A stretch of DNA of 39,537 nt from Sphaeroforma arctica JP610 (Eukaryota): contig NW_014040439.1 in assembly GCF_001186125.1 (NCBI RefSeq), positions 107,749-147,285 on the forward strand. The letters run 5' to 3'. A model generated the notes under the pieces. That model was not told the origin of the DNA, ran no database searches, and saw only the letters and a program-made list of their open reading frames with translations. The position numbers and the translations under genes were made by a program. Below, piece by piece: positions 3,701-26,952 of the stretch. Positions within the stretch are counted from its first letter, which is position 1. Each line of letters opens with the position of its first letter.

Positions 3701-4636
3701 AGATCGATTTTGTTTGTGTGTTTGGATGAGGTACCAATATAATTTTACGAAGCGTAGTATAGCTGTGCGGGAGCGCCTCAGCACGTCATCGGAGAAGAGC
3801 TGCCGGCGCATTTACACCACACAAGATAATATTCACTCAAATCCAATCAGTTTCGATACACACAGACAATTTATCCGGTGCAGTGCATCAGTGTGTGCGC
3901 TATTTAGTGTAAATGTTTATTGTATGGCCTGGTGCACCAAAGTGAGTAGCATTACAAGTCTGTCTCTCCAGAAGTGTTGGTGGTGTTAACCACCCTATAG
4001 TGTGCAAAATCGATACTATTGGTCTGCAAAAGTATTTCCTCATTTCAGGCTGATCAGTCGTACTGCGACTGCGATGCTTCTAACTGAGTTGTAACAATTT
4101 TATCTTGTCCCCGACATGCTTCTAGATATTGTATTGGAGTGTCTTTCGGTCAGGTTTTCTTCTGTATATATCCATCAGTCAGTATATACGCACTCTAGAG
4201 TTATATACATATCCCACATAAGGCTCAAAAACCACACTATATTGCTGATCAGACTGGAGAAGAAAACATTTTTGGTATCCAACCCACGTGTGCGAATGGC
4301 AGTGGAAATGGGGGTTATTGGCGTGTGCCTATTCCTGGGCGTAGTTCCAGCGCTCGCCGCGTTCCCACAGGTATGTCACTACTGTCTAACTCTCTGGAGG
4401 TGCTTGCGTCTATTTCAGATTTTGCACGTTGTGCCATTCAAAATGCTGTGGATATTCATAAAATTTTATTATTTATAACCACTACTTCATGTGTACCATA
4501 CTCGTGTCTCTCTCCTCTGATATACTTGTTACAGATTGAATCTATGAATGCGGATGATATGGAAGAGCAATTCCAGAATCTAAAGGATTCTAACGGCCAG
4601 AAGGTGGAAAAGTTCGTGTTTAATAAAGGCCTGTAG
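772..4636 (+). CDS. SFXN: Sideroflexin (mitochondrial tricarboxylate/serine carrier family), 5'-partial; exons 772-949, 1689-1770, 2304-2382, 2869-2997, 3383-3497, 4253-4370, 4535-4636
   Basis: GT-AG introns with consistent phases join sideroflexin motifs: LWDSKTLIDSAIHPD, FSAFVPAN, HWTNQSYNAAVNYCNRNAS, LPFLACAVSGVLNIGLMRRSELETGVTVFD, GQSIKAA, LAAFPQ and the diagnostic C-terminus FNKGL*. The start codon lies upstream of the window. Confidence 0.93.
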
Positions 4637-5699
4637 ATTCGCCGCAGGGTGACTGGCCCCCCGAACCCAACACCGCGCACGTACAGTCACGGCGAAGTGT
4701 ACGTGTAGAAATGGGGGATTCTTCACGAACATATAGCCGTTTATGCTGTATCAGATAAATCCACTGACTCGAACACGACGACCTGAGCAACATAATAGAA
4801 TGAAAATTGACAGTTAGTCGGATTCGCGCGCATGGAGTGGGGCTGTGTTAGCTAATCACGATCACCCGCCACAACAAAATCTAGAGATGAGATGCGATAG
4901 AATATTTAACTGGTCCGAGTAGTTAGTGTGAACCATGATTGGCAGTGCCAATTGCAAGATTCTCAAGCGATAAAGTTTATATTAAATATAACTCTCCGAT
5001 CTGTGCAGTACGTAACGAATTTCAAAGCCATTTTCATGCAGTGCTGTCAAGATAAGAAAGCCATTATACGATGGATTCTCATGTTTTATTTTTCTTTCCC
5101 GGTCGCGTAGAATTACTCTGCGCTTCCAACAAATGATAAACTATTTATATGTATGGTTGGTGGCAAGGTTCCAGATTGAATTGCGGATAACTATGAACTC
5201 GGGTGCTATTGCTCGAATGACTACAAGTTTATATTTTGTCAGTATATATTTTGCAAACGAAGCACTCAAGAACTCATGTGCAAACATCTGTGGTATTAAA
5301 TAAAAAAAGCAGTGTCTTTCCGTGGTAATAAAAAAAACAGTCTTGACGAAACGAGCTCGGTACCAGTAGAAAACTCTAGCAATTTAAACACAACCTTACC
5401 AGATACGAAATGTAGCACCATATTTGTGACAATTCAGATTCTTCTATGTTCTGAAGCTTGCTAATGGCACACCATATATGCGCGTGTCAAAATCATTTCA
5501 CAATTAATCGTTTTTTATTCCAAATAATTATGATTTCGATTGCGCTACTGATATAGCAGATACGCACCTAGATACAGATATCCATCGCATAACTGTGACG
5601 GCTGACGACGGCCAGTAAGTCCTAAATTTACCACCTTCAATCTGCATGGGTTGTCAACTTGTCGCCGACGGTAGCTTTTTTATCATTGACCTATCCTTT

Positions 5700-6190
5700 C
5701 GCCAATACATACATGAAGAAAAGACATTGCTGACCAACATCTGCCGGTATGTTCTAATGAATTGAGGCTAGATATTTGCTGGCCTGCTGGCAGCCTGGTT
5801 TTGTGGATTCTGGAGTCTAGAGTCTGGACTACTTGTGACTGTGTTGAAAAAACAGGTATTGGGTATGGGACGTTTTGCCGTGGGTCTTGGGTAGCAGCGC
5901 ATTGGCCAGCACTGTAGCAGCTACAGTATGATAATAGTAGTCCATGTCCCACGCAGCACGAAACGCTTGTGCTCGCGGCGGCTGGTAGAGAAGGCCGCAC
6001 CTTAGTCCGACCGTGGACCCTCTGCGGGCAATACACGTTGTACAAGTGTCCATGATGTCCGCTAGCAGATCTTTTGGGATGTTCCATCTCAACTTGTCTT
6101 GGAACAGACGTCTGAGACGTATGGGTCATGCACACATATGTGTGTCATGCAGCGACCAGACTAACTGCAGCACCGTTACCGGTTTATCAT
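5700..6190 (-). pseudogene. Retroviral/Ty3-type integrase: HHCC zinc finger and start of the core, disrupted
   Basis: VLQLVWSLHDTHMCA*PIRLRRLFQDKLRWNIPKDLLADIMDTCTTCIARR...GLLYQPPRAQAFRAAWDMDY matches the H..H...W...CxxC, GLLxP and WxMD (first catalytic Asp) pattern. Confidence 0.7.
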
Positions 6191-6315
6191 TCACCACACT
6201 CTTTCACGTGGCCACGGACTGCAAGGCGTCCAAACACATCCTGTAGCGAACGGGGTGGTTCCCACTATGGACGGGGAGTCTCGACGCGTTCAACCCCTAC
6301 CAGGTGTCGTCGGTT

Positions 6316-6837
6316 GGGCTGCATAACGGTTTCTGAATGAGCACGAGGTGGAACGACGTCTTTTTCTTGCGTACCCCTAGCGTTTGTCCCTCTTGTTTCT
6401 CCCAGAACTTTTGTTCATGCTGCAGAGTTTGTATTCTGTTTCTCCGTCCACTCACGGACATGCGTCAATGGTTCTGGAGTCGTCATCATCCACCCAACTA
6501 GTACTCAGGTACTGTTGCCAAGAAATCTCTCGTTTTGCACGGGCCTCTTCCAAGGCCGACTGATATTCCTGAATCATGTCCCTCATTGACATGGGAAGCC
6601 TCAACACGTTCGTTTAAACCCTACAGACACCCTCGGCTCCATCATCATCCATATGCAATGAGTACGGCCTCGTTTGGACTGCATAGCGAGTTTCTGAATG
6701 AACAAAAGGTGAACGTCGTTTATTCCTTACTTCCCCTCGGCGTTTTGTCCTTCTTGTCTCTCTCGGAACTCCTACTCTTGGTACACAATTCGTATTCTGC
6801 TCCTCCGTCCACTCGCGGGCATCAGTCAATGGTTCTG
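6316..6837 (+). repeat. Diverged ~160-bp direct repeat (6316-6477 and 6676-6837) in the linker of the minus-strand element
   Basis: Shared blocks CTGCATA..G.TTTCTGAATGA, TATTCTG.T.CTCCGTCCACTC and GTCAATGGTTCTG. The minus-strand peptides REWTEKQNTN and REWTEEQNTN match. Confidence 0.8.
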
Positions 6838-7674
6838 AAGTCTCTGGATGAGGTCGCCGAAGGCGACCTGGTCTTCATCCATCTCTCTAGAATCTTGGTG
6901 TTCCTGAACTGTATCTCTCATTGACATCGCCGGTCGCATCAGTCCGGTTTGCTTCTCATTCCCATCCTCATCCCATGACATCGAACTACCGATCAGTATA
7001 TCGGTTGTCGTAGTTCTCTGTTGCCATCCACCCCCCCAGCCGCGACAAATGTATTGCCTTGAGACTTACCTCATATTGGCCTCGATATCGTTGGAACGAC
7101 AGTCCCCACCACCATCGTCTATCCACATATCATCCCCATATACTGGCCCTGTGTCGGCCTTCAAAACTGCTCGTCTGTGCTGGAAAACACTGCCACCGAG
7201 TTATCACCGTCACTGTAGTCTGCGACTACACTCTTCCCGTCCGAAGTGATCTGTTCAGACGCTGGCACGGACAACGACCGGTCACCTACTGGAACACGAG
7301 ACATGATATTTTCCTCTGAAGCTGGCTCACGGTCAATATTCACAGGCGGGCAGCTACTGGTCTCACTACTGTTCGAGTCCCCCATCCGCACTTTGACCTC
7401 AGGTTCTCACATCGCCAATGGTGCGCTCATAGCTCCCCTTTCTCTTCCTCCTCTAATAGATCCGTCACTTGTCGAAAAGATGCATACACACTATTCTCAT
7501 CCGTGCGTGCTCCCTCCTTAGCAGCTGGCACCTCGACCTGGTTCGGGTAACGACCGCCATACACCGGCCCCAGAAGGCTGCGCATCCTATACGGCCGGGA
7601 CTGAAATCTCAGCTGCCGCCAGAACGGACGCGGCAAGTAATGTACTGTATCGGTTTAATGCAGTCACTACGCAA

Positions 7675-8018
7675 CAAGCTAATCAATGTACAACCCCAAG
7701 AGTGTGACCCAAGCGGCCGACCGTTCTCACCAAAGAACGTATCGTGCTCCGGCGACACCACTATCGGTACATTACCCATCATAGCGCAATACCGTGGAAA
7801 CCACATAGTACCAGTCCACACCGGCTTAGCCATCACAACCCTGGCCATTGCAAAGGAATGTAAATACGTCAAGAACGCGTTTATCTCATCCCAGGGCCTT
7901 GTTGGTTATAATATCTAACGATGCTCTGCATGCGTTCGTTAGTGACAGTAGCAAACCCATCATACCAAAGCCTGCCGTAGAATAGATTTAGAATACTACA
8001 AGGTACTGCAAGTCGCAT
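7675..8018 (-). pseudogene. DIRS-type N6-adenine DNA methyltransferase domain, disrupted
   Basis: MRLAVPCSILNLFYGRLWYDGFATVTNERM (DxFA...N motif), a frameshifted N.PW, then DEINAFLTYLHSFAMARVVMAKPVWTGTMWFPRYCAMMGNVPIVVSPEHDTFFG...W. It is collinear with the MTase at 18390-18770. Confidence 0.6.
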
Positions 8019-10306
8019 TGAACTTGGTTCCCGAATCAACGGAAGCTCTGACCGATAGCTTACATCGTTTCACATCCTGCGAGTCCTCTAAGTAACGATC
8101 GTGATGAACAGGGAGGTATTTCCGATATGCAATCGTGCCAATAGGTACATTTGCAATATCCTGGCAATTATCCTTCACCTCTTCTGGTGAGCGTGAACGA
8201 CGATGGCGTTGTAGCTTGTCACGAAATAGATTCGCAGCTACTTGACCTTGATTAAGCTGTTGTCGTGGAGATTTCATCACTCTACGAAATACATCAAAGG
8301 AACGCTTTGCCGACGACGACAAGTTCTGGTGAGTGTCCATTGCAAAGTGCAAATCCGCTGGTTTCAAACCAAATTTCACCAAAATAAATTTAAACACAGT
8401 TGTCGATTCATGAGTACGGCTTGAATCACATAAGTCGGTCGGCATTTCCTCAAGTGTCGTAATTTCTTGTGCTCTGATTTTAAGCGTGTTTCAATATCCG
8501 CTCTCTGGGGTATCGGCTTCGTGCGGCCAATTTTGCGGTTCGTTGGGCTGATTTGTTTATCTCGTCCGCCACGCTGCGAAGTAACTGGCTATTTGGTGTC
8601 GTCCATACCTGTTGAGGAACCCATTGTAGTTGCGATGTTGGTGCTACCTGTTGCTCAAGATGATTATCACCCGACGCTGGCTGGTCCGTGTTCTTGACAG
8701 TAGACTTGTCACTATTCGCAGACATGTCACTATTCGCCGTTGAAAATCCACGACGTTGGCGGAGTTGTCCACGAATGAGATGAATAATATCCGTGGCCTC
8801 CTACACATGCGTCAGCATCCTCCAGTGTCCATCTCGATCAGAAACCCACCCCGGATGCTGTTTGGCCATATCCAACGTAGAAAACGAGTGTTGGGCCTCC
8901 GAAACCAAACGGGCCAGCGTCACGTGAATTTCTGCCTTTTCTTCATTCTCAGGTGTCAGATCCAAAGAAATGCTGACTCTACCTTAGTACAGATTTAAAG
9001 ACAATCGACGATGAACTCCGAGCAGCTGTTTCGATAGCAGGTCACAAGCTTGCTTACCTACCTCAGGTACCGGTGTAGCACTAGGTCTCATCATTAGCGT
9101 AAGCAAAATTAAAAATCAACTAAATTGTCTTTGGTTTGTTTGGTCTATAAAGAATGTAGTGTAATAAATACAGTAGTTCGGTCACTTAAAATGTAGTCGC
9201 GTGTTACGTCTGAATAAGTGGGCTCAGTCAGAAGTGTCGATATGAACGGCGCGACTGCTGTATTTATTAATCACGTTCATATGTGGGATGACATTCTCTC
9301 TGACAACGGGTAGTTGTGTGTTAAAGTGCAATGCAGCCTGAGACCTGTAGTCTCATTGTGAAATTATCCGTATCTATGGTTTTGGTCTCCTAGTTACTAA
9401 ATTCTGATGACACCCGATGTGTCATCCTGCTCTCTAACTATATCCTTTATTCCACTATATGGACCGGTCCTCTGGTCCGGTCCTCATGTCCGGTCCTAAA
9501 ATGTACGCAGTGATTTCTAGCTAACTCTGATTATGATGGACTGGCTGAACACCCACACACCTGAAAGTGTCGTACATTTTGACGAGACACTTATGGTCGC
9601 CATAGATTTACACAACGAATTTGCACAGTACGCATTGGTCCTACCTCAGCTACTAGCAACATTTCATACATCATTAGAGAATCGTCGCCCTAATGTAACT
9701 TGTTTAAAAAGTCTATTAGAAACACGCTACTGTAATTGTATCAATCACAAGCGCTTGAACACTGGGGGTCAACCTCGTGTGCAACATTGCAGAGACTAAG
9801 TCTCATCCAGTTGTGACTCTGCACACATCAACTGCAAGTATGCTCATGTGTAGCATATCAAACTGTACGAGCCCCTCAACTCATGCGGCTCCCAACGACT
9901 CAACATAACTGAGTTAAACCTCAGCCCCAAAACCGGTTAACCTCCCACGAGAAATATCATCAATTCCATCACTGTTACTTCACCACGAACCTCTCCCACC
10001 ATGGATGGTGTGGCCAAAGATATCCACCCAGTCAACTCACACGTACATCCGCTTGTTAGTCTTGTTAGAATTTTATCACCACTAAATTTTTTACCAAGTC
10101 ACCAGAGGATTTTCCACTTATTACATAAATTCAAATTTCCAGATAGAGAGAACTTAGATATCATACGCAGCATGCTCACAGAAGGTGCCAACAAAGGAAA
10201 TGTAGGCACGCTTCCACCTGCAATACACAAACCTCTCACTCAGCTACAGAACACGCCACCCAACTCCAGACAGTCATATCGATCAGGAGCTAGCTCATAA
10301 TATCTC

Positions 10307-10700
10307 ATGAGTCCCATACTCCTGGACGAGGTGAAGACCTGGCCCTACTATTACCTGTCCCCATTTGGTATCCTTCAGAAGATCCGTAGCGATGGCTCGG
10401 TGAAGCTTCGCTGTATTCATCATTTATCCTACCCACATGGTGTGAGCATAAACGATCACATAACCTCTCGGAAACTACAAGATCTAAAGCTACGCAAAGT
10501 TCTAAACGCAGTTGCTGCCATACAGTCGACATTTCGCCTAACCAAGATCTAAGAAACAGACATAACTCGATACAAACCGATTCGTCGATGATTTCACAGC
10601 TATCATTCTTCCTGTTTTAGGTACCTGCGACACAGCCAAGCTACAAGCACTTTTCGCACACGTAAAGGTTGTTGTAGCGTTTGATGTTGAAACAATGGCT
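10307..10700 (+). pseudogene. Reverse transcriptase fragment, DIRS/Ngaro-like, internally deleted
   Basis: LSPFGILQK...KLRCIHHLSYPHGVSINDHI resembles the SP.G...K...RLIxxLSxPxGxSxN N-terminal RT block of tyrosine-recombinase retrotransposons. RFVDDF follows near 10580. Confidence 0.55.
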
Positions 10701-10879
10701 TGGAATTCATCGGTAATCGCCATCGCGTACTGATGAGGTGACGGCATAATTTTCATCTGATTCTATACCAAATGAAGAAACCAAGGCAGAGGTTCAAGCT
10801 ACGCTAGACTGTTTTGTATTTGAGACTCAACAATCGATCCCTACGTTGGATAAGGCCATACAACCTATTGAAAGGATTA

Positions 10880-12491
10880 TCAAGCGGAGTAACAACTTAG
10901 GGCTGCTGACACATGTATAAAAAGATCAGGGTGTCATCAAACTCCGAGTACGATCTATCGACTTGCGACACGCGGCGCCAACCCTCCGTATAAATGGTGA
11001 GCTAATCACGCCGACGCTCGCAGACGCACCCTGGAACACACTTTACCTCTCCCTGAAGATGGTGCCTACATATGCCAAGCCAAAACGCTCCGAATATCCG
11101 GGGTTCCCACTTTCTCACGGAATACCAGGGATCAACCTCGCGTGACATATGGAATCACTGTTTGCAGCATTGTCCCTTGGTATCGCCTCTTTCGCTGGCG
11201 ACACCCCCCCCCCCGAACCGACTGGTGCTGTTCAAAACATTCATCCTATCTACGGCTACATATGGCCTGAACATTATTGCCTGGGCTCCGCCTATATGGA
11301 AGGATGATNNNNNNNNNNNNNNNNNNNNNNNNNNNNNNNNNNNNNNNNNNNNNNNNNNNNNNNNNNNNNNNNNNNNNNNNNNNNNNNNNNNNNNNNNNNN
11401 NNNNNNNNNNNNNNNNNNNNNNNNNNNNNNNNNNNNNNNNNNNNNNNNNNNNNNNNNNNNNNNNNNNNNNNNNNNNNNNNNNNNNNNNNNNNNNNNNNNN
11501 NNNNNNNNNNNNNNNNNNNNNNNNNNNNNNNNNNNNNNNNNNNNNNNNNNNNNNNNNNNNNNNNNNNNNNNNNNNNNNNNNNNNNNNNNNNNNNNNNNNN
11601 NNNNNNNNNNNNNNNNNNNNNNNNNNNNNNNNNNNNNNNNNNNNNNNNNNNNNNNNNNNNNNNNNNNNNNNNNNNNNNNNNNNNNNNNNNNNNNNNNNNN
11701 NNNNNNNNNNNNNNNNNNNNNNNNNNNNNNNNNNNNNNNNNNNNNNNNNNNNNNNNNNNNNNNNNNNNNNNNNNNNNNNNNNNNNNNNNNNNNNAAACAA
11801 ACTTACTCCACTTTTGTGGCCTGCTCCCCGCGCGACCATTCGCGGACTACCTCGGAGGTTGCCTGGGAATACAACTCGACTCAATGGCCAGCACAAATTC
11901 ACTCACCCTTCTGACGCAACCCGCCTGGGCCCACGACAAACCATCACTGCGCTTCCCGTACAGTATCTATGCTCACCTGAGAACTGTACACATAACCACG
12001 GGCGGGCGTACACCCGATCATGTAGCCCTCCGCCAACACTGTGACGACATTAGGAAGAACTCAACAAAACGCTGGTCCAATAAGGAAATCGTGGCAATGG
12101 CCCGGCACCAATACTACTACCAAATGGTCATGAGTACAAAGCCGGGCACGACAGCTTCAACCGCTGCTTAGAGCCTACACCAATCTGGCTCTGTACTACG
12201 ATTGAAACGAATACGTACATGTTCACATTGCTCGACTACCGCACTGACGGCTATATCTGCTGTGTCTACCCCGGTAGCCCCAAATTCACCACCAGCCACT
12301 TTACCTGCATCCAACAATTGATCCGACGCATCCTGGTAGGCCCGAAACTGCCGCACATTGGCCCTGACCTCCTCCAGCAAATACAGGAGCGCCACGACTT
12401 CCACGGTATCTGGACCCTCCACGAATACCTTGGATCCTTTTTCCAGCATATAGAACAACCGCCGTACCTTCTCTCTGACACATCAACCTGA
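10880..12491 (+). mobile_element. Decayed non-LTR (LINE-like) ORF2 C-terminal remnant spanning an assembly gap
   Basis: NLGLLTHV.K, LRINGELI and RLVLFKTFILSTATYG are typical end-of-RT and post-RT LINE segments. A degenerate Cys/His knuckle ICCVYPGSPKFTTSHFTC lies near the 3' end. Confidence 0.5.
11309..11794. other. Assembly gap (N run)
   Basis: Run of n. The other gaps are at 20740-21461, 26994-27262 and 28967-28986. Confidence 1.
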
Positions 12492-13806
12492 CACATCAAC
12501 AGATGTTCCCCATACCCCGGCTAATCACGCTGTTGAAGTACTACTTCCACATTTCGGTACAAACCCAGTCATCGCGCTTGTTGGTTCCGCCTATGATCTT
12601 CCAGTACAGGCCAGCCAGCACATACCGAGTGCATTCGTGGTCTGATGCGGCATTGGCTTATACCCAACCTTGCTCTACTCGGTATTGTAAATTTCGATGG
12701 ATATTTCTATGTTTTAAACTATGTTATATAAAACAAGATACAATTTAAGTCAGTTAAGATTTAGCAGTGGTAGCTTGTGTAAGAATAATCGGGACTGCCT
12801 CTTGTAGAGTATGGAGAGTAGCTGAACGGTACGAGACAATAGGATACAATAGACCTCTTCTCAAGTACGGTTATCTCAGCTAGGAAAAGTCCCTAGACTG
12901 CGAGAACCGAACTGAGTCTTTAGTTGTGTTTTCACTAGACTCATATTTACTTGAGTGTTCCTCGGGAGTCCCGGTATAGCTTACCGGTTCTACCGCTAAT
13001 ATTTCTGATGATTCTAATATCGGAAATATTCCAATCCTAATTCCAAAACTCAGTATTTGATTATTCTGGGTTTTGGGATTTGGATTGGCTTTTTGATAAT
13101 CTGGTCCCTAGTAGATGCTACACTCTTGGTAAGAGCCTTAATATCCTCGATCACACAGGACGTACCAATTTTCACTAAAAGCACTAAGTGTTCATGACTA
13201 CATGCCTAATTTGTAGATAGACAGAAGAACGTAAGTCAAGTTAATACATTAGCTAATATAAATAAAGTTCCATCTGAAGAAAAGATAAAGAAAAAGAAAA
13301 AGACTTATTGGATTTTGGAGATTGGCGGGAAGACCAAAACCTGTAAGTAGTAGTTCAGATTATAAAATTTGTTTATAATATCCTACATTTACTATCGTCT
13401 CAAATAGGTCCATGTAAATGAGTCATACCAAATACTCAGGCTATTGGAGCCATCATTTTTTTTTTAGAACACTTTGGAAATCTTGGAAAAAGAACTTGTA
13501 TTAAATTATTCTCAATACAAATAAAAACCAATGTGATATCTCATTTGATCTTGATATTTTATACTGACCGGAGGCCGTATATCTACATAAATAGCTTTTA
13601 GAACTACGGACGTACGTGAAGGTACAATCTAGTTCGTAAAGTGAAAACCAAAGTAAACCGCTTTCGGTCATGGCTTATCGAGTAAGTATTTGCCCATATG
13701 TACGAGTTCAAGACTCATGTTGTACTCTTATGTCATTTAGTATTTGGTCCAGTAAGAGGAGACCGACTTATACATATTTTTAAGTTTATAATACGCTATC
13801 GATATT

Positions 13807-15113
13807 ATGACAAAAGGGAAGAATAGGGCAGCGAATGTAGTTAAGGCTGCAAACGCGAAAGAATTTGCTGTAGGCGAAGCGAAGCAGAAAACGCCCCCGG
13901 CACCACCAGAAGCTGCTGAGGCAACTGAGGTCACGCCAACACAAGTAGCACCAACTCTATCAAACTGGGAACGTAAGAAGTCGGCTGATTCGGGTGTAGG
14001 CTCTTCAGTTGGGAGCGTGACATCTGAGCCGCTGAAGCCACCAGCAAAGAAGTCAAGGTCCAGAAAGGGAAGGTTGAGCTCGGAAAATTCAACTTCAGAG
14101 AAAGTACGACATGCACTGGAATCAGATGTATCATCTCCACCAGTAGACACGCGCACCTATCATACCTATCATATGTTATCCCGAGATATGAGAACTTTCT
14201 TGAAAAACTACCAACCAATGGTACATGAACTGAGACCCACTAAGCAGCGGAAGAAAAAGCAAGCCGCAGCGAAGGATCAAGGTCATGGTGAATCAGGAGA
14301 AAATTACTCGGAGGATGTGCCAATAGCACACAAACTGTTGGATCAGCCCCAAATCAACGTAACGGAGGAACAACTGCGTTTCGTGGATATTGGTCCGGAT
14401 GATGTTGACCATACACTTCACCGTCAGGACGACGATTCGGACACCAGGCTGGATTCACAATTCTTGCGTTTACCCAAACACCACTCCGACCGGCTTGGCG
14501 ACAGAACTTTGATCTGGGCCATCCATACCAGACTCAGATTGATATCCAGGAGGAGGGTCAACGAGAGCTGATCCGACAGCGGGCCAACCGGGCATAGGTG
14601 TTAATGGGTGTTAAGACCAAGCCGGATGGTACAATCTCACTTAGGTTTGTAATGAATGCAGCGGTAAGAAATTTTAGGCTCGATTTGTTTAGAGATTCTA
14701 ATTACTACAATCGGCTAGTAGCAATGAAGACTGACGAGGATAAGCAGGCACGCAAACGTTTTCGTCAGTTTCAAAAGATACTACCGAAGGTATTCGGAAT
14801 TAAGAGAGATGTAAGTTTTGCACACTTAATTTGGTACGCAATTTGCGATCTTCTTGGAGATATTCCCGATTTGATATCGAACCATTTGGCACTCTATCAA
14901 GCCATATTGGTATTTGAGATGTTGTCCAGACAATGGAGAGGCAAACACAATCCGATCTTCATCATCCGAAGCTCAATCTTCTCCTGGATTGGATGCAACA
15001 ACAATGTCACGAATGGCATCCGAACAGGAGCCTGTACCAAATCCACCTACGGAAGGCAATCCACAGAATGCCCCAGAGGTAGTTCCGAAGGACAAACCGA
15101 CCGAAGAGCCTAA
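13807..15113 (+). pseudogene. Unknown 5' accessory ORF of the retroelement (basic, S/P-rich N-terminus followed by a globular-looking segment)
   Basis: ORFs 13807-14571 and 14598-15113 have protein-like composition and are co-oriented immediately upstream of gag. No recognisable domain. Confidence 0.45.
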
Positions 15114-16486
15114 ACCTGATCAGGCGGAAGCAAAAACATATTTGTCATCATCGGGAGACAGTTCGCCCCCAGCGGCTATCCCAACGACGACACAAGATGC
15201 TGATCCATCACATGCGTTCATACACATAGAACAGGTCGATGGATCAAAGAATGAGGCAGACATGTGACTGCAAGGTATCAGATCACTCCAGTAGTGATTT
15301 GAAAATAGCTGAATTCTCTGTTTAAATGAACAAAGCTGAGGCTGCTTCTCTCGAGGCGATGGATCAAGGTAGGATTGATGCCGCTAGTCTTTACATGTCA
15401 ATGGCTGCGCACTTCCAGACCAAGATTGATTCAGAACTAAGAGTGATTCAGACCGAGAAGGCTGTGGAAGGCAAGAAGTTTGTAAAGGACATAGGTAAAC
15501 TACCAACGGCATACATATCTGATCGAAAGGACCGAAAGGATCCAATCGATACTAGCAGTCTGGCGTTGTTATCTAGGTATTTGAAGGAGTTTGACAGATT
15601 ATGCTTACAGCAAATCTACGTAAGAATCTATGGTTCGAAGCAGCGCAGCAGAGCTTTAAGCCGTCCTCTTACAAGTACAACAAGTTGGAGAAGGCGAAAC
15701 AAGCGATCACTAAGCTGAAGACGTGGAAAGAGCAGAGTGAGATGATCGTTATCTATTCTCGACGGACCCTCAACCGGAATTGCTTGTATCGATCATGATA
15801 CCACCGGAAGAAGGAACGCCAGTGTCCCACTACCTACTGGAGTTGAACACACACATGTCAAGGGCCCAGACTCGGAAGATATCACCTGATATGCTAATCA
15901 TGTGTGTACTATGGGTGCAGACAATCTTTTGGTCGAGCCTGCATAGGAAAGATCAAGAGATCCTGTATGCTGATATGCATCAATCTTACCCGGACAAGGT
16001 ACGAGAGATCTCCATTGAGGGACCTACCTACGGTATTATGAAGCTTGCTGACTTAACCTGGGCTGAGTTTTACTCGAGAGCAGATCAGACGTTTACGAAA
16101 CGTCCCAGTTCCGTGGTGAAAGTCACCAATGTCCAGAAGAAGGTCGGAGGCAATCTCGCCGGAGGATCAGGCATGGTCGAAACTCTCAGTCTACTAATGG
16201 AGGTCAGAAGGTGAACAAGGGAGGTGACAAAGGTGGCCATAAGAACAAAAATACCAATGGTTCCGATGGCAACAAGAACAATGTCATCCCTAAGGGTAAC
16301 CAGACCGCCAGAAATGGACCACCTGCAGGCAATCCGAAGCCCAGGCATAGGGAGGTCAAGAACTGTAGTGAGACTGATTGCAATTGGCGAATGACCCAAC
16401 ATGAGCCGAATGGCAGATGGAATAGGAGGCACGCAGACAAGTGTAAGCACTTTGTCACGAAGTGTGCCGACTTGCAAGGGTTTTAG
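14914..16486 (+). pseudogene. Gag-like ORF, frameshifted
   Basis: It sits directly before PR. Helical-looking segments are followed by a G/N/K-rich tract and a Cys/His cluster (CSETDC...H...H..KCKH...C) at the nucleocapsid position. Confidence 0.55.
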
Positions 16487-16579
16487 GGTTGCAAGGTGCA
16501 ACCAAAGGTTGATGTTAAGTGACAAACATACCGAGTCTTGTCACTACGACAAAAGAACGCACCTCAAGACGAGCGTGTC

Positions 16580-18350
16580 ATCCTTGATATACGAGTTAAT
16601 GGACATTAAAAAAAAGCGTTGTTGGGTCCAGGCTCGCAAATTTCATGTATATCATCTAGATTCTGTAAGATGACAGACATAACTCGTAAGTCAGAACCAA
16701 CTATGTTGAAACTGGCTGACGAAAGAGAGATCACTTGTAGAGAGATGGCGATCGATCTTAGGTTTACTTTGACAGACCAACGTACTACAGTTACTAAGGC
16801 AGTCATATGTAACACATCACCTGACTATGATCTCATAGTGAGCATGGGTGATTTATTGTCACTAGGTATAGTAAATACAGGCTTACCTATGAACATTGAA
16901 CCACAGAAGGATCAGTCGGACGATAAACCTTCGAAGACTGTGAACGAGATGATCCCTCACTTCACAAAGAAACTCAAGGACTTACTTTTTGAAAATGACA
17001 AGACCAAGATTACTGACTGGGCTAAGTTCAAATTCAACAACGGATATGTTAGTCTAATCTGACCAGAGTGGATTTCTCGAAGTTGAAGCGTCCTACACGT
17101 AACTATGTTGCATGGCGTTATGAGCAGGTCGTACGTGAGCAGGTTAAACTTGGTTAGATGATGGAGTGATCGCCGTCAACTACGACCCGACTCCCGTCAA
17201 CCTAGCGCTTTTAGTCGTCGACCAGTTCAACTCTGACGTGACGCTGAAGAAGGTTTGGGTGTGTTTGGACATAAGCGCCAATAACGCTCTGATACCGACA
17301 CACAATTTTCACTTACCAAGGATAAACGAACTACTCAGGCGTATGGAGGGAGCTAATATATTTTCCACTATCGACCTGAAGCAGGGCTACCACCAGATGA
17401 AGATGTACAAGCCACATCGGAAGTATTTCACCTTTACCTGGGAGGGTCAGTAATATTTGTTCAAAGGCGCCCCCTTTGGGTTACACATTTTACCTGCCTT
17501 CTTCCAGCAGATAATGCAAGATTTGTTTAGGGACATGTACAATGTACAAGTATACATTGATGACATTGTGGTACTCACCAAAACCAAAGAGGAACACGAC
17601 AGGGTTGTGCGAGAGGCCCTAGACAGACTCAACAAGCACAACTTTAATGTCAACAGTAAGAAATATCACTTCGGTGTCAACGAGATTCAACTGTTGGGTT
17701 ACCGAGTATCCGGGGATGGAATCATGATCGATCCCGGGAAGGTCGGACACTAGCTAGACTGGAGAACTCCTACCACAGAAAAGGATGTCAACAGCATGTG
17801 CGGACTCGGCAACTTTTTGTCTGACGGGGTACCACACCTGGCGAGCTACTTGAAGCCCTTTGGACATTTGAGATGTCATAAAGGCAAACTAGGCGCACTG
17901 TGGACCAAAGACTGTGATGACGCATTTAAGCAGCCCAAAACAGTGATTCAGCAGGCACCAGTAGTCCAGCCACCAAAGTATGGTATTCCATTCATGGTAG
18001 CAACAGACGCGTCCGACATGGCACTCGGCGGCGTTCTGTATCAAATGATTGAAGGGAAACCAAGATATGTACAGTTCTTTAGCAGGGCTATGAACTCGTC
18101 TCAGATCAATTACCCAACCGTGCAACAAGAGCTTTTGGCTATTGTTACTGCACTCACTCATTTTAAGGACTATCTATATGGCACACACTTTAACGTGCTA
18201 TGTGATCAGAAGTCATTGCAACACCTAAAGGACATGAAAAATAACTCACAGTTAGTCAGTCGGTGGCATGACACAATTGCGAAATTTTCTTTCGGCATAA
18301 CACACATACCGGGTTTTCACAATCACTTACCCCACATGTTGTCTCGCTTC
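16580..18350 (+). pseudogene. Pol: aspartic protease, reverse transcriptase and RNase H (Ty3/gypsy type)
   Basis: PR: VILDIRVNGH*KKALLGPGSQISCIS (catalytic Asp replaced by Gly) and YDLIVSM. RT: FSTIDLKQGYHQ, APFGL, VYIDDIVV (17553), IQLLGY. RH: FMVATDASDMALGGVLYQ, FFSR, YPTVQQELLAIV, VLCDQKSL, RW, HIPG..N...MLSR. Confidence 0.92.
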
Positions 18351-18389
18351 GTACCAGATTGTAACAATATGGTTAGGGAGTTACTTAGG

Positions 18390-18770
18390 TGGTTTAAGAT
18401 CGCTGACAACACACATGGACCACATACCATAGATATGTTTGCCGCACATCATAATGAGCAACTGCCGAGGTACCGGACATTGGAACATCCGGAAGGAGTC
18501 GGATTCCAGATAGACTTGTCTAACGAGAATGCCTGGGCAAATCCTCCATGGCTATCAATACCACAGTTACTAAATTATATACATATTCAAGATGCTACCA
18601 TCACGTAGTGTTGTCCCCTAAGACACTCAGATAAATGGCTACCACAGTTGATCTCAATGATACAATGTGGGCCGATCTATGAGGATAGAGAGGTAGATAC
18701 TTTCTATGCCAGGGTACCCGTGCAGTCCAGAAGACGCCTTGGCGACATACTATAATATGTCGAATAGGTC
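18390..18770 (+). pseudogene. N6-adenine DNA methyltransferase domain (DIRS/phage Dam-like) fused in frame after RNase H
   Basis: WFKIADNTHGPHTIDMFAAHHNEQLPRY (SAM-binding DxFA at 18432) and AWANPPW (catalytic NPPW at 18540-18551). It continues ATIT*CCPLRHSDKWLPQLISM...GP...DTF, then after a frameshift KTPWRHTIICRI. Confidence 0.85.
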
Positions 18771-19429
18771 CTGTTGGAACAACCAAGTGGACTCCATCCG
18801 AGACTTTCAAACAGAAGGTTGATGAGTCCAAGATTCCACTCTTGAATCCTAAGTCTCAAGCAGAGACTGGGACAACACAAGCACCTGCAGTATGTGTTAC
18901 CGAGATACAGCCAAATTCAAAGGAATCAAAGAGGAGCGCAACACTAGCGAAAGCCTTTTACAAGAAGATACGGTCTGACAGGGAAACTGCATACCAAGCA
19001 GAGACTCGATTGTCTTTTGAGAGACTAAAGTAGTAGACGTATTTCTATATACGTTAATAACGTTTTACGTCGTCAGCCCAAGAGTAATTTTGGGTCAGCC
19101 CGAGAGAACGTAAGAGTAATTCGAGACTTCTTCTCAAAATATTCTATTTATAGAATACGGGCCACCGGCTAGCCGAGAGCCGAGGTCCGAGACTGAGTGT
19201 AGTATCAGAGAATATGATATATTTATTTCTGGAAAATATATCCGAGTGCTAGTGTTCTGCATAAGGTTTCTCATACTGATCATATAAGTTTTTACCCTGG
19301 CCAACCTAAGTGGTTGAACACTAGTACAAACACCATCAGTATATGACTTAGTATAATAAATTTACCCAATATGCGTACAACTCGGACCAAGAAAATAAAA
19401 TAGTTGCACGCAATATTTTATTCATGACG

Positions 19430-19984: not shown

Positions 19985-20147
19985 AAAGCAAAAGCCAAAG
20001 TGTTTGCTTAATATACCCTATGAAGAGAAGGTTCATGCGCACAAGCATGAGATAAAGACAGGTACCCTACTTTTACTACCCGATAGGAAGCTGTACCGTG
20101 TTCAGAATGTGAAGCAGGATGGCAATTGTCTTCCAAGATATACATAG
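19985..20147 (+). pseudogene. Possible OTU-like cysteine protease N-terminal fragment, cut off at the MULE TIR
   Basis: The frame reads ...PDRKLYRVQNVKQDGNCLPR. V..DGNCL is the OTU catalytic Cys box, and the frame ends where the TIR begins. Confidence 0.45.
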
Positions 20148-20386
20148 TTTTGGAAGGTAAATATGGTTCTATTAATAGTATTAGACTAAATCTTATATTT
20201 GGTATTTTACTGGGGCCTTTTAATGACCTTGTCCAAATATCTAATATGTAAAATGGAAAAGGTGTTAATTAATAAAACCGTTAAAACCCATTTAAGGAAA
20301 ACTGAGTTTACGTACTTTTAAGAGTACGTTTTGCGTACTATTAAGAGTACGTTTATATTACAAGATTCTAATGTGGAGGCCCGGCT
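20135..20386 (+). repeat. Left terminal inverted repeat
   Basis: AAGATATACATA...TTTGGTATTTTACTGGGGCCTTTTAATG...TCTAATGTGGAGGCCCGGCT is a diverged reverse complement of 27678-27935. Confidence 0.88.
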
Positions 20387-20394
20387 TTTACATA

Positions 20395-20480
20395 GATAAG
20401 CGTTCCACTCTCGCCTCCCGCTAGATAAGCGTCCCACTCTCGCCTTCCGTTAGTTATGCGTCCCACTCTCGCCTCCCGCT
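20395..20480 (+). repeat. Subterminal ~29-bp tandem repeats (x3)
   Basis: TAGATAAGCGTCCCACTCTCGCCTCCCGC units. Inverted related copies occur at about 27293-27400. Confidence 0.8.
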
Positions 20481-21461
20481 GGCTCAAATAGCAATTTGCG
20501 CATCGCTGCGCACACGTGCATGCGTAGATGCAATTTTATGTACACGGATAAGCACGCGCACATAGTCACGTATTGTACATACATCTCATAAATATACCTC
20601 TAAATTTTAAGAGAAGTTATTTTTTCAATGCAATGCAAACGTATTTTACATCGTACGCACTAGCGCATGCCTGCGTGCACAAATGAATGATTGGAACGCA
20701 GATCTTATTACTGTAGTGACGCATTACCATAAATTTATANNNNNNNNNNNNNNNNNNNNNNNNNNNNNNNNNNNNNNNNNNNNNNNNNNNNNNNNNNNNN
20801 NNNNNNNNNNNNNNNNNNNNNNNNNNNNNNNNNNNNNNNNNNNNNNNNNNNNNNNNNNNNNNNNNNNNNNNNNNNNNNNNNNNNNNNNNNNNNNNNNNNN
20901 NNNNNNNNNNNNNNNNNNNNNNNNNNNNNNNNNNNNNNNNNNNNNNNNNNNNNNNNNNNNNNNNNNNNNNNNNNNNNNNNNNNNNNNNNNNNNNNNNNNN
21001 NNNNNNNNNNNNNNNNNNNNNNNNNNNNNNNNNNNNNNNNNNNNNNNNNNNNNNNNNNNNNNNNNNNNNNNNNNNNNNNNNNNNNNNNNNNNNNNNNNNN
21101 NNNNNNNNNNNNNNNNNNNNNNNNNNNNNNNNNNNNNNNNNNNNNNNNNNNNNNNNNNNNNNNNNNNNNNNNNNNNNNNNNNNNNNNNNNNNNNNNNNNN
21201 NNNNNNNNNNNNNNNNNNNNNNNNNNNNNNNNNNNNNNNNNNNNNNNNNNNNNNNNNNNNNNNNNNNNNNNNNNNNNNNNNNNNNNNNNNNNNNNNNNNN
21301 NNNNNNNNNNNNNNNNNNNNNNNNNNNNNNNNNNNNNNNNNNNNNNNNNNNNNNNNNNNNNNNNNNNNNNNNNNNNNNNNNNNNNNNNNNNNNNNNNNNN
21401 NNNNNNNNNNNNNNNNNNNNNNNNNNNNNNNNNNNNNNNNNNNNNNNNNNNNNNNNNNNNN

Positions 21462-21652
21462 GCCTCTCTTGCACATATCTCTCGTACACCTCTCGCACAC
21501 CTCTCTTGCACACCTCTCTCGCACACCTCTCTCGCACATCTCTCTTGCACATATCTCCGCACACCTCTCTCGCACATATCTCTCGCACGCCTCTCTTGCA
21601 CATATCTCTCGTACACCTCTCGCACATCTCTCTCGCACATCTCTCTCGCACA
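21462..21652. repeat. CTCTCGCACA-type minisatellite adjoining the gap
   Basis: Repeated CTCTC(G/TT)GCACA(C/T) units. Confidence 0.85.
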
Positions 21653-22523
21653 CCACATATTGATCCATTTTGATCTATAAACTATAGAGCGGACGGGGAA
21701 CATGACCCTGAGTCATCAAAATCCACCATCGTGGACATCACCGGACCGGAAGCAGAAGAGCGGCAAAAGACAACACCGGAGCAAGCTTTAAAGGAGAGCA
21801 AGAAAAAAAAGAAAAAAAAAGCCTTCTCGAGAAAGTTACCTAATCCGGAAGCGTTGAAACCTCCTAATAGATTATCATCAGCTAAAAATACCCCTGACGA
21901 AAAGCTGCATGACCATGGTGACACAGCCGGAATACTGCATACAGGCAGTGAAGACAAGAACGTCGACTGGGATAGAAGCACCGACAGCAAACTTGACTTA
22001 GACTGGCAGTGATAACATTGGCGATGATGAAGATGGCGACGACAGAGAAAATGAAAAGGAAAACATCCCTGACGCTGACAAGCCCGACACGGAAAATAGA
22101 AAGGATAACATACCTGACGCTGACGCTGACGAGCCCTATCTACCAAAATTGATACCCAAAAAGGATTTCTGGGACTGTGCCATACAACGCGAACACGATT
22201 ATGACAAAACAGATAAGAATATTTCAAGAGGATGTATCTGGGAGGAACAACTACATCCAGATAAAAAATTCAAAACCTAGGCTGAAGCGAGGAGGTTGTG
22301 CGATAAGATTGCTGACATTTGCAATGTGGTGCTATGTAGCAATGTAGACTTGAAGCGAGGTAAAGGGGTGTTAGCTCACAACAGAAGCGGTTCTGCCACA
22401 AAATTGAGAAACCGCAATAAGGTTAGAAGATATTTAGCTAAGCAGGTAACTCACAAAGTACCAAAACATCGCATGAGGCATTCCATAAAATGTGACTGCA
22501 AATTCAAGGTAAGGCTATTTATG

Positions 22524-22667
22524 TGCCCCTCTCTCGCCTCCTTCCAATTAAGCGCCCCTCTCTCGCCCACCTCTAAGTTAAGGGCCCCTCTCTCGCCCCC
22601 CTCAAATTAAGCGTCCCTCTCTCGCCTACCTCTAAGTTAAGCGCCGCACTCTTGCCCCCCTCCAAGT
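22524..22667 (+). repeat. Intronic ~30-bp minisatellite
   Basis: TTAAGCGCCCCTCTCTCGCC units, about 5 copies. Confidence 0.85.
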
Positions 22668-23508
22668 ATAACACACTTAATAATATTTTATGCTTTCAGC
22701 TTAACTTCGTGCACACGGACGCACCACCAGGTTTTGACCCAACTCCATTTATAAGTGGTGAGAAGTATGACGGTTGGATAGCGCCAGGCGTAAGTCATTT
22801 TATACACACTGAAGGATGCAACCCCTGCAATGAACAAGCAACTGTTTCGTTTGTAGTAAGTGGGAAACTGTCAAATGGGACAGATTTGGACTCGAGGTAA
22901 GCAACTAATGATGTCAGAAAAGGTATATTTTATGTGGAATATAATGGTGTTTAGAGAGGAAGAGTGCAAAAGAGGTGAATTTAAAAACAAATTTCATTAA
23001 CAAATTATATATATGCAGATGAAGAACATCCTAGTTACCATGGCCATGCGGAAATGCCCGACGAACGAGTTCCGGAAGTATATACTTTAGGTGTTTCCAG
23101 ATGAAGTATTCGCTACAGCCCAAACTATACATAACATCCGAGTCGTAAGTTATATCAAAAAAAAATTATCGGTTACTGTTTTATGACACACCATACATCG
23201 TTTTAGGGTTTAGGGTTATCGTATACTTATGTTACATAACCTGCCACACGCTAAATATGTGCTTATTTATGCATGCACTTATATTCAGAACGCTATCAAA
23301 TACGCCTTAAGATACAAAATGAGCAAACAACTTTTTGACGATGTTAAGACCTTGCCGTCTTATAATAAGAGGTCAAGCACATTTGCACCTGGTGAGGAAA
23401 TATCAGAGGAGTGCATCGAGGAGTTTGTGAAGATAACAGAATGTGAAGAAGCAATGAACTCGTAAGCATTTTAGGGTTTGTACGTATAAACCTCGATGTG
23501 GTGTCTCT

Positions 23509-23728
23509 TTCTAATGCATAACTCTAATACATAACTCTAATGCATACCTCTAATCCTCACCTCTAATGCATACCTCTAATTCTCACCTTTAATGCATAAC
23601 TCTAGTGCATACCTATGCGTACCTTTAATGTATACCTCTAATGCATAACTCTAATGCATACCTCTAACGCATAACTCTAATGCATACCTCTAATGCATAA
23701 TTCTAATGCATACCTCTAATCCTCATCT
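23509..23728 (+). repeat. Intronic 13-bp minisatellite
   Basis: CTCTAATGCATA(A/C) units, about 16 copies. Confidence 0.9.
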
Positions 23729-24798
23729 CGGGAGCGACTTTCTCAACTTCTTCAAATTGGCACAATCTATGAACCCGCACCTGTATGTTCGAACTCTGCG
23801 CGACAAAGCGACCAATGTTCTCAAATGTGTTCTTTGGATGACGAACACCATGAGAAAGAATTATAGAAATTTTGGTCGTATTGTCAGCATGAATGCTCGC
23901 CAGAAGGGGAATAAGGAGTGGTGGTGGCAAATCTCTATATTGGTAGGGCCAGGCAACGACGGCAAAATCAAGTACTTCGGTGCTATGCTATTCTATATGG
24001 AGACGAAAGAAGTATATAGATTTGCATTAGATTCTCTACATAAATCAATGGGCGAGAGGGCGCCATTGAAAACTAAGATAAATTTTGCCGATGGATTTTT
24101 GAATCAATCCGATGTTAGAGAAGGACAGTTTTATTTTGCTGATAGCTACAATACATGGCAGACTATCAGTAAGAATCTTGGTAGGTACTACAGTGGGCGG
24201 GTGAAAAAGGCCTTGGACAAAGATATGCACGCCACAACACAACAACTATGTGACCATTACCTTGATATTGCCATTGATATACTGTCTCAGAAGAATGCTG
24301 CCACTGGGGTTCGATTCTTGAATAAGATGAAGCAATCATCTGAACACATGTTTGAATGGGGTATAGCTGGAAAGCTCACAATGGGGCTTAAAGGGTCACA
24401 GATGAGTGAATCGTCAAATTCTCAACTGGAAGCTTGGTTCAAGTCTTTGATACTTACAATGCCTAGACTTTTCACTGGCATATGCAAAATTGCCAATCAG
24501 ATGCATTCAGCCAGTAGAATAGCAAGAATCAGGTATAATATGATATGCAACATAGGGAAGTACGATGATGACGGCCCGCCTAGATTCCACGAGCCCGTTC
24601 ACATAGCAGACTGCAGAAAGTGGGGCAGTGAAATATGTACCGAGCGGGTTTCAGTCGAGGTTGATTAGGCCAGATCGTATCGTATCGACTCATCCCAGGA
24701 CCTCGGAGAAAATGTGACGTCCTACAAGTGCGCGTACGACGGAAGAGAGGACCGATACCTAACCGTTTTAGGGACAGGAGAAAGGTAATCGTTCACTA

Positions 24799-24979
24799 CT
24801 TATGCGCCCCACTAATCTACATCGCTTATGCGCCCTACTAATCTCCACCGCTTGTGCGCCCCACTAATTTACACAGTTTATGCGACCCACTAATCTACAC
24901 CGCTTGTGCGCCCCACTAATCTACACCGCTTATACGCCCCACTAATCTACACCGCTTATGCGCCCCACTAATCTACACC
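24799..24979 (+). repeat. Intronic ~27-bp minisatellite
   Basis: CTTATGCGCCCCACTAATCTACACCG units, about 7 copies. Confidence 0.9.
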
Positions 24980-25719
24980 ACAGGTTCATATGCACATGTG
25001 CAGATTGGAATCAATACCAGATTCCGTGCAGACATATTGTGTCAGTGTGTTAACACATAGGCAAACCTTTATTCCATCAGGCGTACTTCGACCACGTGTG
25101 GAAGCTCGAGATCAAGGATTCGAAAGACACGAAGTTTCCTATCATTGACGAAAACGATGTGGAAAACTTCGACTATGACACCATGGGAATAGGCGATGAT
25201 AAAGACAGAGACAGCGAAGATTTGGATGACGGTGACGGTGAAGATTCGGATGGACACAAAAGTGATGAATCGGATGACAGTGACAATGATGATGCGCATG
25301 ACGATGCCGGTGCAGATAAGCAACGGAGAAAGAAGTTTCACGATTCAAGTCTCATTTGAGCGAGAAGTATGGGACGTATCAAAAGCTGATGGGTGGAGTA
25401 TACAAACAAGCAGACACCAATGGCCAAAATGATTTTCTACTCGCCTTGATGGAGGTTATGAGTTTAATATTTAAGCGTCTTAATGATGCCGAACATGGTG
25501 ATGACAAGTTGGCAGCAGTGGGACGTGGGTTAGTGTTTTATTCCAAAAAGAACAAAAACGAACCTGTATCTCCATGTAATCTGTTCACCGACCCTGGACC
25601 AAGATCGAGACAGCCAGGAGGTCAAGCAACTAAACGCTACCATGGAGCTGAACCTCGAAATCAATCTAAAAAACCCCCGAACTGACACAAGAGATGGTGA
25701 TCGCAAATTAAGTCTTAGT

Positions 25720-26135
25720 GATGAGTGCGCATCAAATTCCAGTGGTGAGTGCGCATCAAATTCCAGTGGCGAGGGCGCATCAAGTTCCAGGGGCGAGGGC
25801 TTATCAACTCTAGATGGTATTTCTACTTTGTGGGGTGATTTGTTTGGCGATGACAAGGCTCATACTGCTTTGGTCGATGATATGCTAACCGGTAGCAAGG
25901 CGGAGGGAGGCCAGAGCGGTAGCAAGGCAGAGGGGGGCCAGAGCGGTAGTAAGGGAGAGGAGGGCCAAAGCGGTAGCAAGGCACAGGACAAAAAAAAATC
26001 ACAATCTAAGTCATTGGGCACCAATATTGACAGCGGTGTGTTCCATGAGCTAAAAGAGAATGGTCCCAAAGCCGATCCATCACCTAATCAAGCCGATCCA
26101 TCACCTAATCAAGCCGATCCATCACCTAATCAAGC
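25720..26135 (+). repeat. In-frame coding tandem repeats in the transposase C-terminal region (24, 27 and 21 bp units)
   Basis: ECASNSSG x3, GSKAEGGQS x3 and ADPSPNQ x3. Confidence 0.85.
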
Positions 26136-26659
26136 TTCACAATTCCAATCACAAGGCCGACATGCGTACGATGAGCTGACTCAATCGTCGCAAATCGATG
26201 AATCGATGAAGGTGCAGACAAGATCTCCTGGTAAAAAGGGTAGAGTATGTGAGATGTGCGGTGAGTCTGGGCATATTGGTGGAGTAAATGCATTTATATC
26301 AAGCGAAGGGGATAGGCAATTCCCAAGTCAACGCGTGAGGATTGGAATAACGAAATACCTCCAGTACAAACCAATCGGCTCACTAATAATATAAGTAACA
26401 GAAACGTTGAGATGATTCCTACTCAAAGAGCGAAATGTATCACTATATTGGGATACCATTTCGATACGCATGTTTCTAAAACCATTTTTTTAGTAGAAAT
26501 AATAGGGTCAGTGGATAATCTAAAACATCAGGGATTGCACTATTGGGCCAGTGCATCTGATTACAACTCGGATATCCAAGAAGAAAAGTACGGTAGTTTT
26601 TGTGGCCAACAGCTAAAAATGCTTCAATATAATACACTTTGCTATTAAAATATACTTAC

Positions 26660-26952
26660 ATACATTGCTATTATTATATACCTTCATTGCTATTATTACA
26701 TACCTTCATTGCTATTATTATATACCTACATGCTATTATTATATAACTACATTCCTATTAATATATACTCAAATTGCTATTGTTATATACTAACTTCCAC
26801 TGCTATATTTATATACTTACATTGCAGTATTTCTATACTGTCATTGCTATTACTATATACTCTTACGTTGCACTTACGTTGCTATTCTTGATATACACGG
26901 ACTTTCTTGGCGCATATATATATATATATATACATACACACACACACACATT

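What the first reader, a model, noticed from the sequence alone, without database searches (positions are those of the whole stretch)
5680..9093. Second, divergent element pairing an adenine-MTase domain with an HHCC integrase but no RT
Seen: the minus strand carries FYGRLWYDGFATVTNERM, a frameshifted N.PW, and ARVVMAKPVWTGTMWFPRYCAMMGNVPIVVSPEHDTFFG...W. This aligns motif by motif with the MTase at 18.4 kb, without obvious nucleotide identity. About 1.5 kb of low-complexity linker follows, then LHDTH...W...CTTC...GLLYQPP...WDMD. The roughly 350 codons upstream of the MTase show no RT or RH motifs. Known: MTases of this type normally travel with tyrosine recombinase rather than DDE integrase. 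Inference: this is either an internally deleted or non-autonomous relative that shows the missing 3' order (MT-linker-INT), or a Ginger-like integrase DNA transposon with MTase cargo. Two divergent instances in one window would imply a diversified family.
Basis: partly seen in the sequence, partly recalled or inferred. Interest (0 to 1): 0.75.

Follow-up and report, generated by a model that had tools for sequence, protein, structure and literature searches.

The report
Dead methylase-carrying retrotransposon fragment
This is a broken stretch of jumping-gene DNA, likely from the single-celled animal relative Sphaeroforma arctica, in which a ruined adenine-methylase domain sits behind a cut-off repeat gene; the reverse transcriptase was likely deleted rather than never present, and this kind of element was described in a 2026 preprint.

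Summary
7678-7899 (-) is the C-terminal half of a Dam-like adenine methyltransferase (DAM): profile E 2e-7, next unrelated hit 8.6. It has a frameshifted N.PW and lacks about 15-22 residues. The integrase at 5.8-6.2 kb has motif support only. RT and RNase H are absent, but this looks like damage, not design. At 8054 a multi-copy gag-like ORF is cut in mid-frame and joined to the DAM. The closest relative of this DAM (SARC_06453, 56% identical) lies behind RT-thumb/RNase H-like sequence. Intact relatives of the 18.4-kb element show PR-RT-RH-DAM-linker-integrase. No TIR or LTR pair was found. So this is most likely a dead, deleted and possibly chimeric Ty3/gypsy DAM-LTR remnant, not a Ginger-like transposon. 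DAM-LTRs, including in S. arctica, are described in bioRxiv 10.64898/2026.05.21.726589. One modest point remains: this DAM is only 22-29% identical to the 18.4-kb family, so it marks a second DAM lineage in the genome, possibly a separate capture.

The parts
9192..9680 (-). Repeated segment upstream of the ORF; candidate 5' LTR (inferred, ends approximate)
   Evidence: Many unlike contigs lay here in 4 of 4 runs, with summed depth falling at about 9682 (depth is not a copy number). No second copy near the 3' side.
8054..9094 (-). 5' part of a multi-copy ORF, gag-like by position only; two internal stops and a frameshift near 8485; cut off at 8054
   Evidence: 9 of 12 phmmer hits match this part at 47-76% identity; all 9 are S. 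arctica JP610 gene models. Gag identity was not confirmed by Pfam, Atlas or fold.
8050..8058 (.). Junction where the multi-copy ORF is joined to the DAM remnant
   Evidence: Other copies leave the window sequence at 8054 with a common loose end (9 contigs in X1, 5 in X16). One contig with 0 differences spans 4300-8360 in X1, X10 and X3, so the junction is real DNA. Protein matches also stop at 8053-8065.
7612..8053 (-). Dead Dam-like N6-adenine methyltransferase: weak N-half 7905-8053 with about 15-22 residues missing, frameshifted N.PW at 7891-7907, C-half 7678-7899
   Evidence: 55-58% identical to SARC_06453 and SARC_06695, 22-29% to the 18.4-kb family and other intact Pol DAMs, 34% to a DIRS-like DAM.
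6230..7611 (-). Decayed coding linker with an internal duplication 6310-6481 / 6670-6842 (77% identical)
   Evidence: Patches match the post-DAM region of SARC_06695 (6571-6503: 4 of 1000 shuffles reach the score; 4 of 15 overlapping windows with 0 of 60 shuffles) and of SARC_06453 (1 of 12 windows).
5832..6182 (-). Probable integrase remnant (HHCC zinc finger and first catalytic D); no recognisable third acidic residue or GPY/F; motif-level support only
   Evidence: Motif in 1 of 3000 simulated regions, pattern written post hoc; no profile hit; motif scan.
12750..19400 (+). Comparison element: repeated Ty3/gypsy DAM-LTR copy (gag-like region, PR, RT, RNase H, DAM at 18387-18769), with no integrase detected; ends approximate
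   Evidence: Pfam RVT_1, RT_RNaseH, Dam; 62-66% identical to intact Pol proteins P0003 and P0004; many unlike contigs lay on it up to about 19400.

Best explanation
This is a dead fragment whose DAM, linker and probable integrase are likely the 3' half of a Ty3/gypsy DAM-LTR retrotransposon, and whose protease, RT and RNase H were likely removed by a deletion ending at 8054. Shown: the DAM remnant, the absence of RT/RH, the junction at 8054 and the truncation of the upstream ORF there. Inferred: the intact parent read gag-PR-RT-RH-DAM-linker-INT and moved by ordinary reverse transcription and DDE integration, carrying DAM inside Pol. The preprint's model, in which DAM lays 6mA on the new copy so that host AMT1 keeps it transcribed, is untested, and its E. 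coli assay was negative. This copy cannot do any of it. Whether the upstream ORF is the parent's own gag (one internal deletion) or the 5' end of a younger neighbouring element fused by the same deletion is open; I put it at about 45:55, because many unlike contigs lay on the upstream part and none on the DAM-linker-INT part at 80% likeness.
For: DAM C-half significant. The closest DAM relative, SARC_06453 (56%), is named 'Reverse transcriptase RNase H-like domain-containing protein' by UniRef. Its residues 6-97 hit a gypsy RT-RH profile at E 2.5e-4 and align better to a gypsy Pol (6 of 1000 shuffles) than to the DIRS-like P0022 (415 of 1000). Four intact Pol proteins show PR-RT-RH-DAM-(linker)-integrase; Pfam rve is hit in 3 of 4. 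The linker has matching patches in SARC_06695, which also carries this DAM. Other copies of the upstream ORF run on past 8054 with a shared sequence; translated by hand it matches the continuation in SARC_02465, SARC_01237 and SARC_03448. S. arctica is one of three species with the published ichthyosporean DAM-LTR lineage.
Against: No intact member of this DAM family was found, so the parent architecture rests on two decayed gene models that may be mis-spliced. SARC_06453 has no Pfam hit up to E 10, no PDB hit, and only 1 of 4 gypsy Pol comparisons of its first 100 residues is below p 0.01. The integrase has no profile support. This DAM is slightly closer to a DIRS-like DAM (34%) than to the known DAM-LTR proteins (22-29%). 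No LTR pair was found. The gag identity of the upstream ORF is unproven. No SARC number of the upstream-ORF family is adjacent to 06453 or 06695 (only cluster representatives were seen).
Confidence: 0.8

Rival explanations
1. The DAM comes from a DIRS/Ngaro-type element, where DAM also follows RT-RNase H, and the integrase-like motif is chance or a separate scrap.
For: Best non-family match of the DAM is DIRS-like P0021/P0022 (39-41% in tblastn, E 2e-10 to 6e-9; 34% in the alignment). The integrase has no profile hit. A segment that looks to me like a DIRS/Ngaro RT start (recalled motif) lies at 9941-10552.
Against: The RT/RH part of SARC_06453 fits gypsy better than P0022. No recombinase was seen. 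The HHCC-G.L-W..D motif lies in the expected place and strand. The 9941-10552 segment is on the other strand and unconfirmed.
Confidence: 0.1
2. The RT-less arrangement is a non-autonomous element that was copied as a unit (gag-like ORF, DAM, integrase), borrowing RT from an autonomous partner.
For: All parts lie on one strand in the canonical order, from an ATG at 9094. RT-less LTR derivatives exist (general knowledge).
Against: In X1, X10 and X3 only the window's own contig lay on 4300-8043 at 80% likeness, while other copies of the upstream ORF diverge at 8054. No 3' LTR. The junction breaks the reading frame.
Confidence: 0.05
3. A Ginger-like DDE DNA transposon that carries a methyltransferase as cargo.
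For: No RT or RNase H in 8020-11308; an integrase-like motif is present.
Against: No TIR pair and no YPYY. Ginger1 transposases have the integrase at the N-terminus, whereas here it would be last. The closest DAM relative has RT/RNase H-like sequence upstream. The RT-less state ends at a visible break.
Confidence: 0.02

Closest known systems
DAM-LTR retrotransposons, ichthyosporean lineage (Fernandez-Moreno et al., bioRxiv 10.64898/2026.05.21.726589; whole main text read, figures and supplements not seen)
   Same: Dam-like NPP-type domain with Ty3/gypsy parts and no chromodomain, in S. arctica. The paper also treats orphan DAMs as degenerate transposon remnants.
   Different: This copy is dead and lacks PR, RT and RNase H. 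Its DAM is only 22-29% identical to the 18.4-kb family, which I take (not shown) to be the published lineage. Whether the paper's tree includes this second lineage could not be seen.
DIRS retrotransposons with a Dam-like domain (noted in de Mendoza et al. 2018, PMC5890265; passages read)
   Same: Same DAM domain after RT-RNase H; a DIRS-like protein is the best non-family match.
   Different: No tyrosine recombinase seen; the relative's RT/RH part looks gypsy-like; an integrase-like motif follows.
Ginger1 and Ginger2/Tdd DNA transposons (Bao et al. 2010, PMC2836005; passages read)
   Same: Gypsy-like HHCC integrase without RT.
   Different: No TIR, no YPYY or GPY/F, integrase last rather than first, and RT loss explained by a break.

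Membership tests
Ty3/gypsy DAM-LTR | Dam-like domain with an NPP-type motif | tested here: met
   Profile E 2e-7, 31 bits against 10 for the best of 1000 shuffles; motif broken by a frameshift.
Ty3/gypsy DAM-LTR | Gypsy RT and RNase H in the same element | tested here: not met
   None in this copy. RT-thumb/RNase H-like sequence precedes the closest DAM relative SARC_06453. So it is filed as a remnant derived from the family, not as an intact member.
Ty3/gypsy DAM-LTR | DDE integrase downstream of RNase H | tested here: inconclusive
   Motif only; no profile hit.
Ty3/gypsy DAM-LTR | LTR pair with target-site duplication | tested here: not met
   No direct repeat between 9150-9950 and 4640-5900 (best E 0.42); only a one-sided candidate.
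Ty3/gypsy DAM-LTR | gag upstream of pol | tested here: inconclusive
   Multi-copy ORF in the gag position; a relative has a CX2CX9HX3C stretch (read by eye); Pfam, Atlas, AlphaFold (pLDDT 55) and Foldseek gave nothing.
Ichthyosporean DAM-LTR clade of the preprint | DAM falls inside the published clade | not testable with these tools
In a 9-sequence tree of about 80 columns this DAM and two S. arctica models are separated from the rest with support 97.
Ginger DNA transposons | TIRs of about 40-300 bp | tested here: not met
   No inverted match better than E 1.1 between the two flanks; none among the 25 longest of 176 inverted repeats shown.
Ginger DNA transposons | Ginger1: N-terminal integrase with YPYY and GPY/F | tested here: not met
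   No YPYY in three minus frames of 4700-9100; the one GPF lies at 8915, far upstream of the integrase-like motif.
Ginger DNA transposons | 4-bp target-site duplication | not testable with these tools
   Ends are not defined and no genome is held.
DIRS/Ngaro | Tyrosine recombinase | tested here: inconclusive
   No recombinase family among the Pfam scans of the longer frames; no dedicated profile was run and decay could hide it.

The most novel reading that the evidence does not exclude
S. arctica holds a second DAM-LTR lineage whose methylase was captured from a DIRS element independently of the published ichthyosporean lineage, so that the same genome records two separate captures; it survives only as decayed copies that an ORF-based Pfam screen would miss.
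Probability: 0.25. Interest if true: 0.4.

Novelty: new member of a known kind. Interest (0 to 1): 0.2.

Why it matters
As a single dead copy it matters little. If the second lineage proves to be a separate capture, it would add one more independent DIRS-to-gypsy transfer of DAM in a host with AMT1-type 6mA. That would support the idea that 6mA-using hosts favour such captures, and it would give a second family in a cultured species with nanopore 6mA data. It says nothing new on what DAM methylates.

Tried and rejected
No genome is held, so no copy census was possible. Word-based protein searches with the DAM C-half (12 candidates) and with alignment A1 (7990 candidates) found nothing; this is weak evidence, since one search also missed SARC_06453. 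The metagenome scan with alignment A2 gave 11 loci with 18-24-residue matches at E 3e-5 to 4e-4; I judged them chance and did not examine them. The viral scan with P0003 found nothing. PDB sequence searches with the integrase-like frame, SARC_06453 and the 9941-10552 frame gave nothing meaningful. Atlas searches on the upstream ORF and on SARC_01237 stayed below 0.9; no Atlas result exists for the integrase-like frame. The AlphaFold model of SARC_01237 was of low confidence and Foldseek found no match at E 0.001. A by-eye 'integrase core start' in SARC_06695 was not upheld: BLASTP against the window frame gave E 1.3, and that stretch aligns as well to the linker. No integrase was found after the 18.4-kb DAM. 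No RNA holder was listed for the stretch, which is no evidence on expression. Earlier notes of this scan: none for this genome or by sequence. A paper search for ginger + DNA transposon + adenine methyltransferase + integrase returned one unrelated review (listing only); searches returned no other description of S. arctica DAM elements (listings only).
Full report
Setting. The window is eukaryotic: it has sideroflexin exons at 4.1-4.6 kb and a tyrosine kinase at 36.8-38.7 kb. No genome is held. Eleven of the 12 proteins found with the finding's own translation are Sphaeroforma arctica JP610 gene models, so the window is likely from that ichthyosporean (inference). The finding lies in a cluster of transposon remains between 5.7 and 28 kb.

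The reference element. 13.8-19 kb (+) carries protease, RT, RNase H and a Dam-like domain. It is 62-66% identical to two intact Pol proteins. These and two more distant ones show the order PR-RT-RH-DAM-linker-integrase; Pfam rve is hit in three of the four, and two have a weak Chromo hit. The kind is described in bioRxiv 10.64898/2026.05.21.726589 (whole main text read; figures and supplements not seen). It reports DAM-LTRs in at least four independent lineages, one of them in Pirum, Abeoforma and S. arctica, with raised 6mA and expression and a negative E. coli methylation assay.

The methylase. The C-terminal half at 7678-7899 is hit by all four Pol proteins (E 1e-4 to 2e-2) and by their profile (E 2e-7, next unrelated hit 8.6). 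With X at the frameshift it scores 31 bits against 10 for the best of 1000 shuffles. The N-half aligns in register but is not significant alone. The catalytic N.PW is split by five extra bases and about 15-22 residues are missing before it (counted), so the domain is dead. There is no nucleotide similarity to the 18.4-kb DAM. Over the C-half it is 55-58% identical to SARC_06453 and SARC_06695, 34% to a DIRS-like protein and 22-29% to the 18.4-kb family and the other Pol proteins. A nine-sequence tree separates the three from the rest with support 97. That tree is short, sparse and unrooted, and cannot show an origin.

The integrase. The peptides are there, but Pfam, tblastn, a four-sequence HMM, HHalign and a PDB search all missed them. 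A post hoc HHCC-G.L-W..D pattern is unique in the window and arises in 1 of 3000 simulations. I call it a probable remnant with at most the zinc finger and the first aspartate recognisable. The linker is decayed coding DNA with an internal duplication. Parts of it match the post-DAM region of SARC_06695, so DAM and linker travelled together; most windows of that comparison (11 of 15) were not significant.

Why RT is missing. No RT, RNase H or protease signal lies in 8020-11308 on the minus strand. Contigs of four public runs were laid on 4300-11300 at 80% likeness. From 4300 to 8043 only the window's own contig lay in X1, X10 and X3. From 8054 upward many contigs lay; the longest listed ones differ at about 15-18 letters in 100. 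At 8054 they leave the window with a common loose end (9 contigs in X1, 5 in X16; 763 further loose-end rows were not shown). One contig without differences bridges the junction in three runs, of which X1 may be the window's source, so this is not an assembly error. The protein matches to nine S. arctica gene models stop at or before the same place, and the loose end, translated by hand, matches their continuation. So the 350 upstream codons are the 5' part of a repeated ORF cut in the middle. The closest DAM relative, SARC_06453, has RT-thumb/RNase H-like sequence ahead of its DAM: UniRef name, profile E 2.5e-4, better fit to gypsy than to DIRS. This support is modest, since Pfam and PDB searches do not recognise it. 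Together these results make RT loss by deletion the simplest account.

One element or two. If the upstream ORF and the DAM came from one copy of one family, both should have relatives of similar closeness. The upstream part has many above 80% and the DAM-linker part none, and among the 12 protein hits 9 match the upstream ORF and 2 the DAM family. Summed depth is not a copy number, and 55-58% amino-acid identity could sit just under the 80% nucleotide cut-off. I therefore lean only slightly (55:45) to a fusion of two neighbouring elements. The upstream ORF is gag-like by position and by a cysteine-histidine stretch in SARC_01237, but no tool confirmed it.

Ginger. Bao et al. 2010 (PMC2836005, passages read) define Ginger by TIRs, 4-bp target duplications and, for Ginger1, an N-terminal integrase with YPYY and GPY/F. 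No TIR, no LTR pair and no YPYY were found, and the integrase-like motif is last. This reading is rejected. That Dam-like domains occur in DIRS elements is stated in PMC5890265 (passages read).

Verdict. A dead, deleted and perhaps chimeric remnant derived from a DAM-LTR retrotransposon, a kind already described for this species. Earlier notes of this scan on other genomes reach the same literature; they are unchecked and not used as support. What remains open is whether the second DAM lineage is a separate capture (probability about 0.25). Interest 0.2.

Noticed in passing
window 12750-19400 +: Repeated Ty3/gypsy DAM-LTR copy with a few stops and frameshifts; similarity to other copies ends near 19400, before any detectable integrase.
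   Followed up: partly
window 9941-10552 +: Frame with a PFG...RCIHHLSYP...ND stretch that looks to me like the start of a DIRS/Ngaro RT (recalled motif); no Pfam or PDB hit, weak match to P0003 only.
   Followed up: partly
window 10680-10950 +: Second fragment of the same upstream-ORF family, 75% identical to 8859-8947, pointing the other way and cut near 10927.
   Followed up: partly
window 10927-12700: Very abundant repeat across an N gap; LINE-like by eye, no Pfam hit.
   Followed up: no
window 20135-27935: Element bounded by 165-nt inverted repeats (87%) with a ZSWIM RNase H-like hit at 23694-24665 (E 0.003); likely Mutator-like.
   Followed up: no
window 31881-38722 +: Exons with EGF, hexapeptide-repeat and tyrosine kinase domains; if one gene, an unusual receptor-kinase architecture.
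   Followed up: no
protein P0003: This intact Pol has CPP where its relatives have the catalytic NPP.
   Followed up: no
window 13556-13572 + and 9178-9195 -: Both elements have a similar ATTTTA...TGACCG stretch just inside their presumed 5' ends; possibly a shared primer-binding site (by eye).
   Followed up: no
window 4095-4636 +: Last exons of a sideroflexin gene, the host gene next to the remnant.
   Followed up: no
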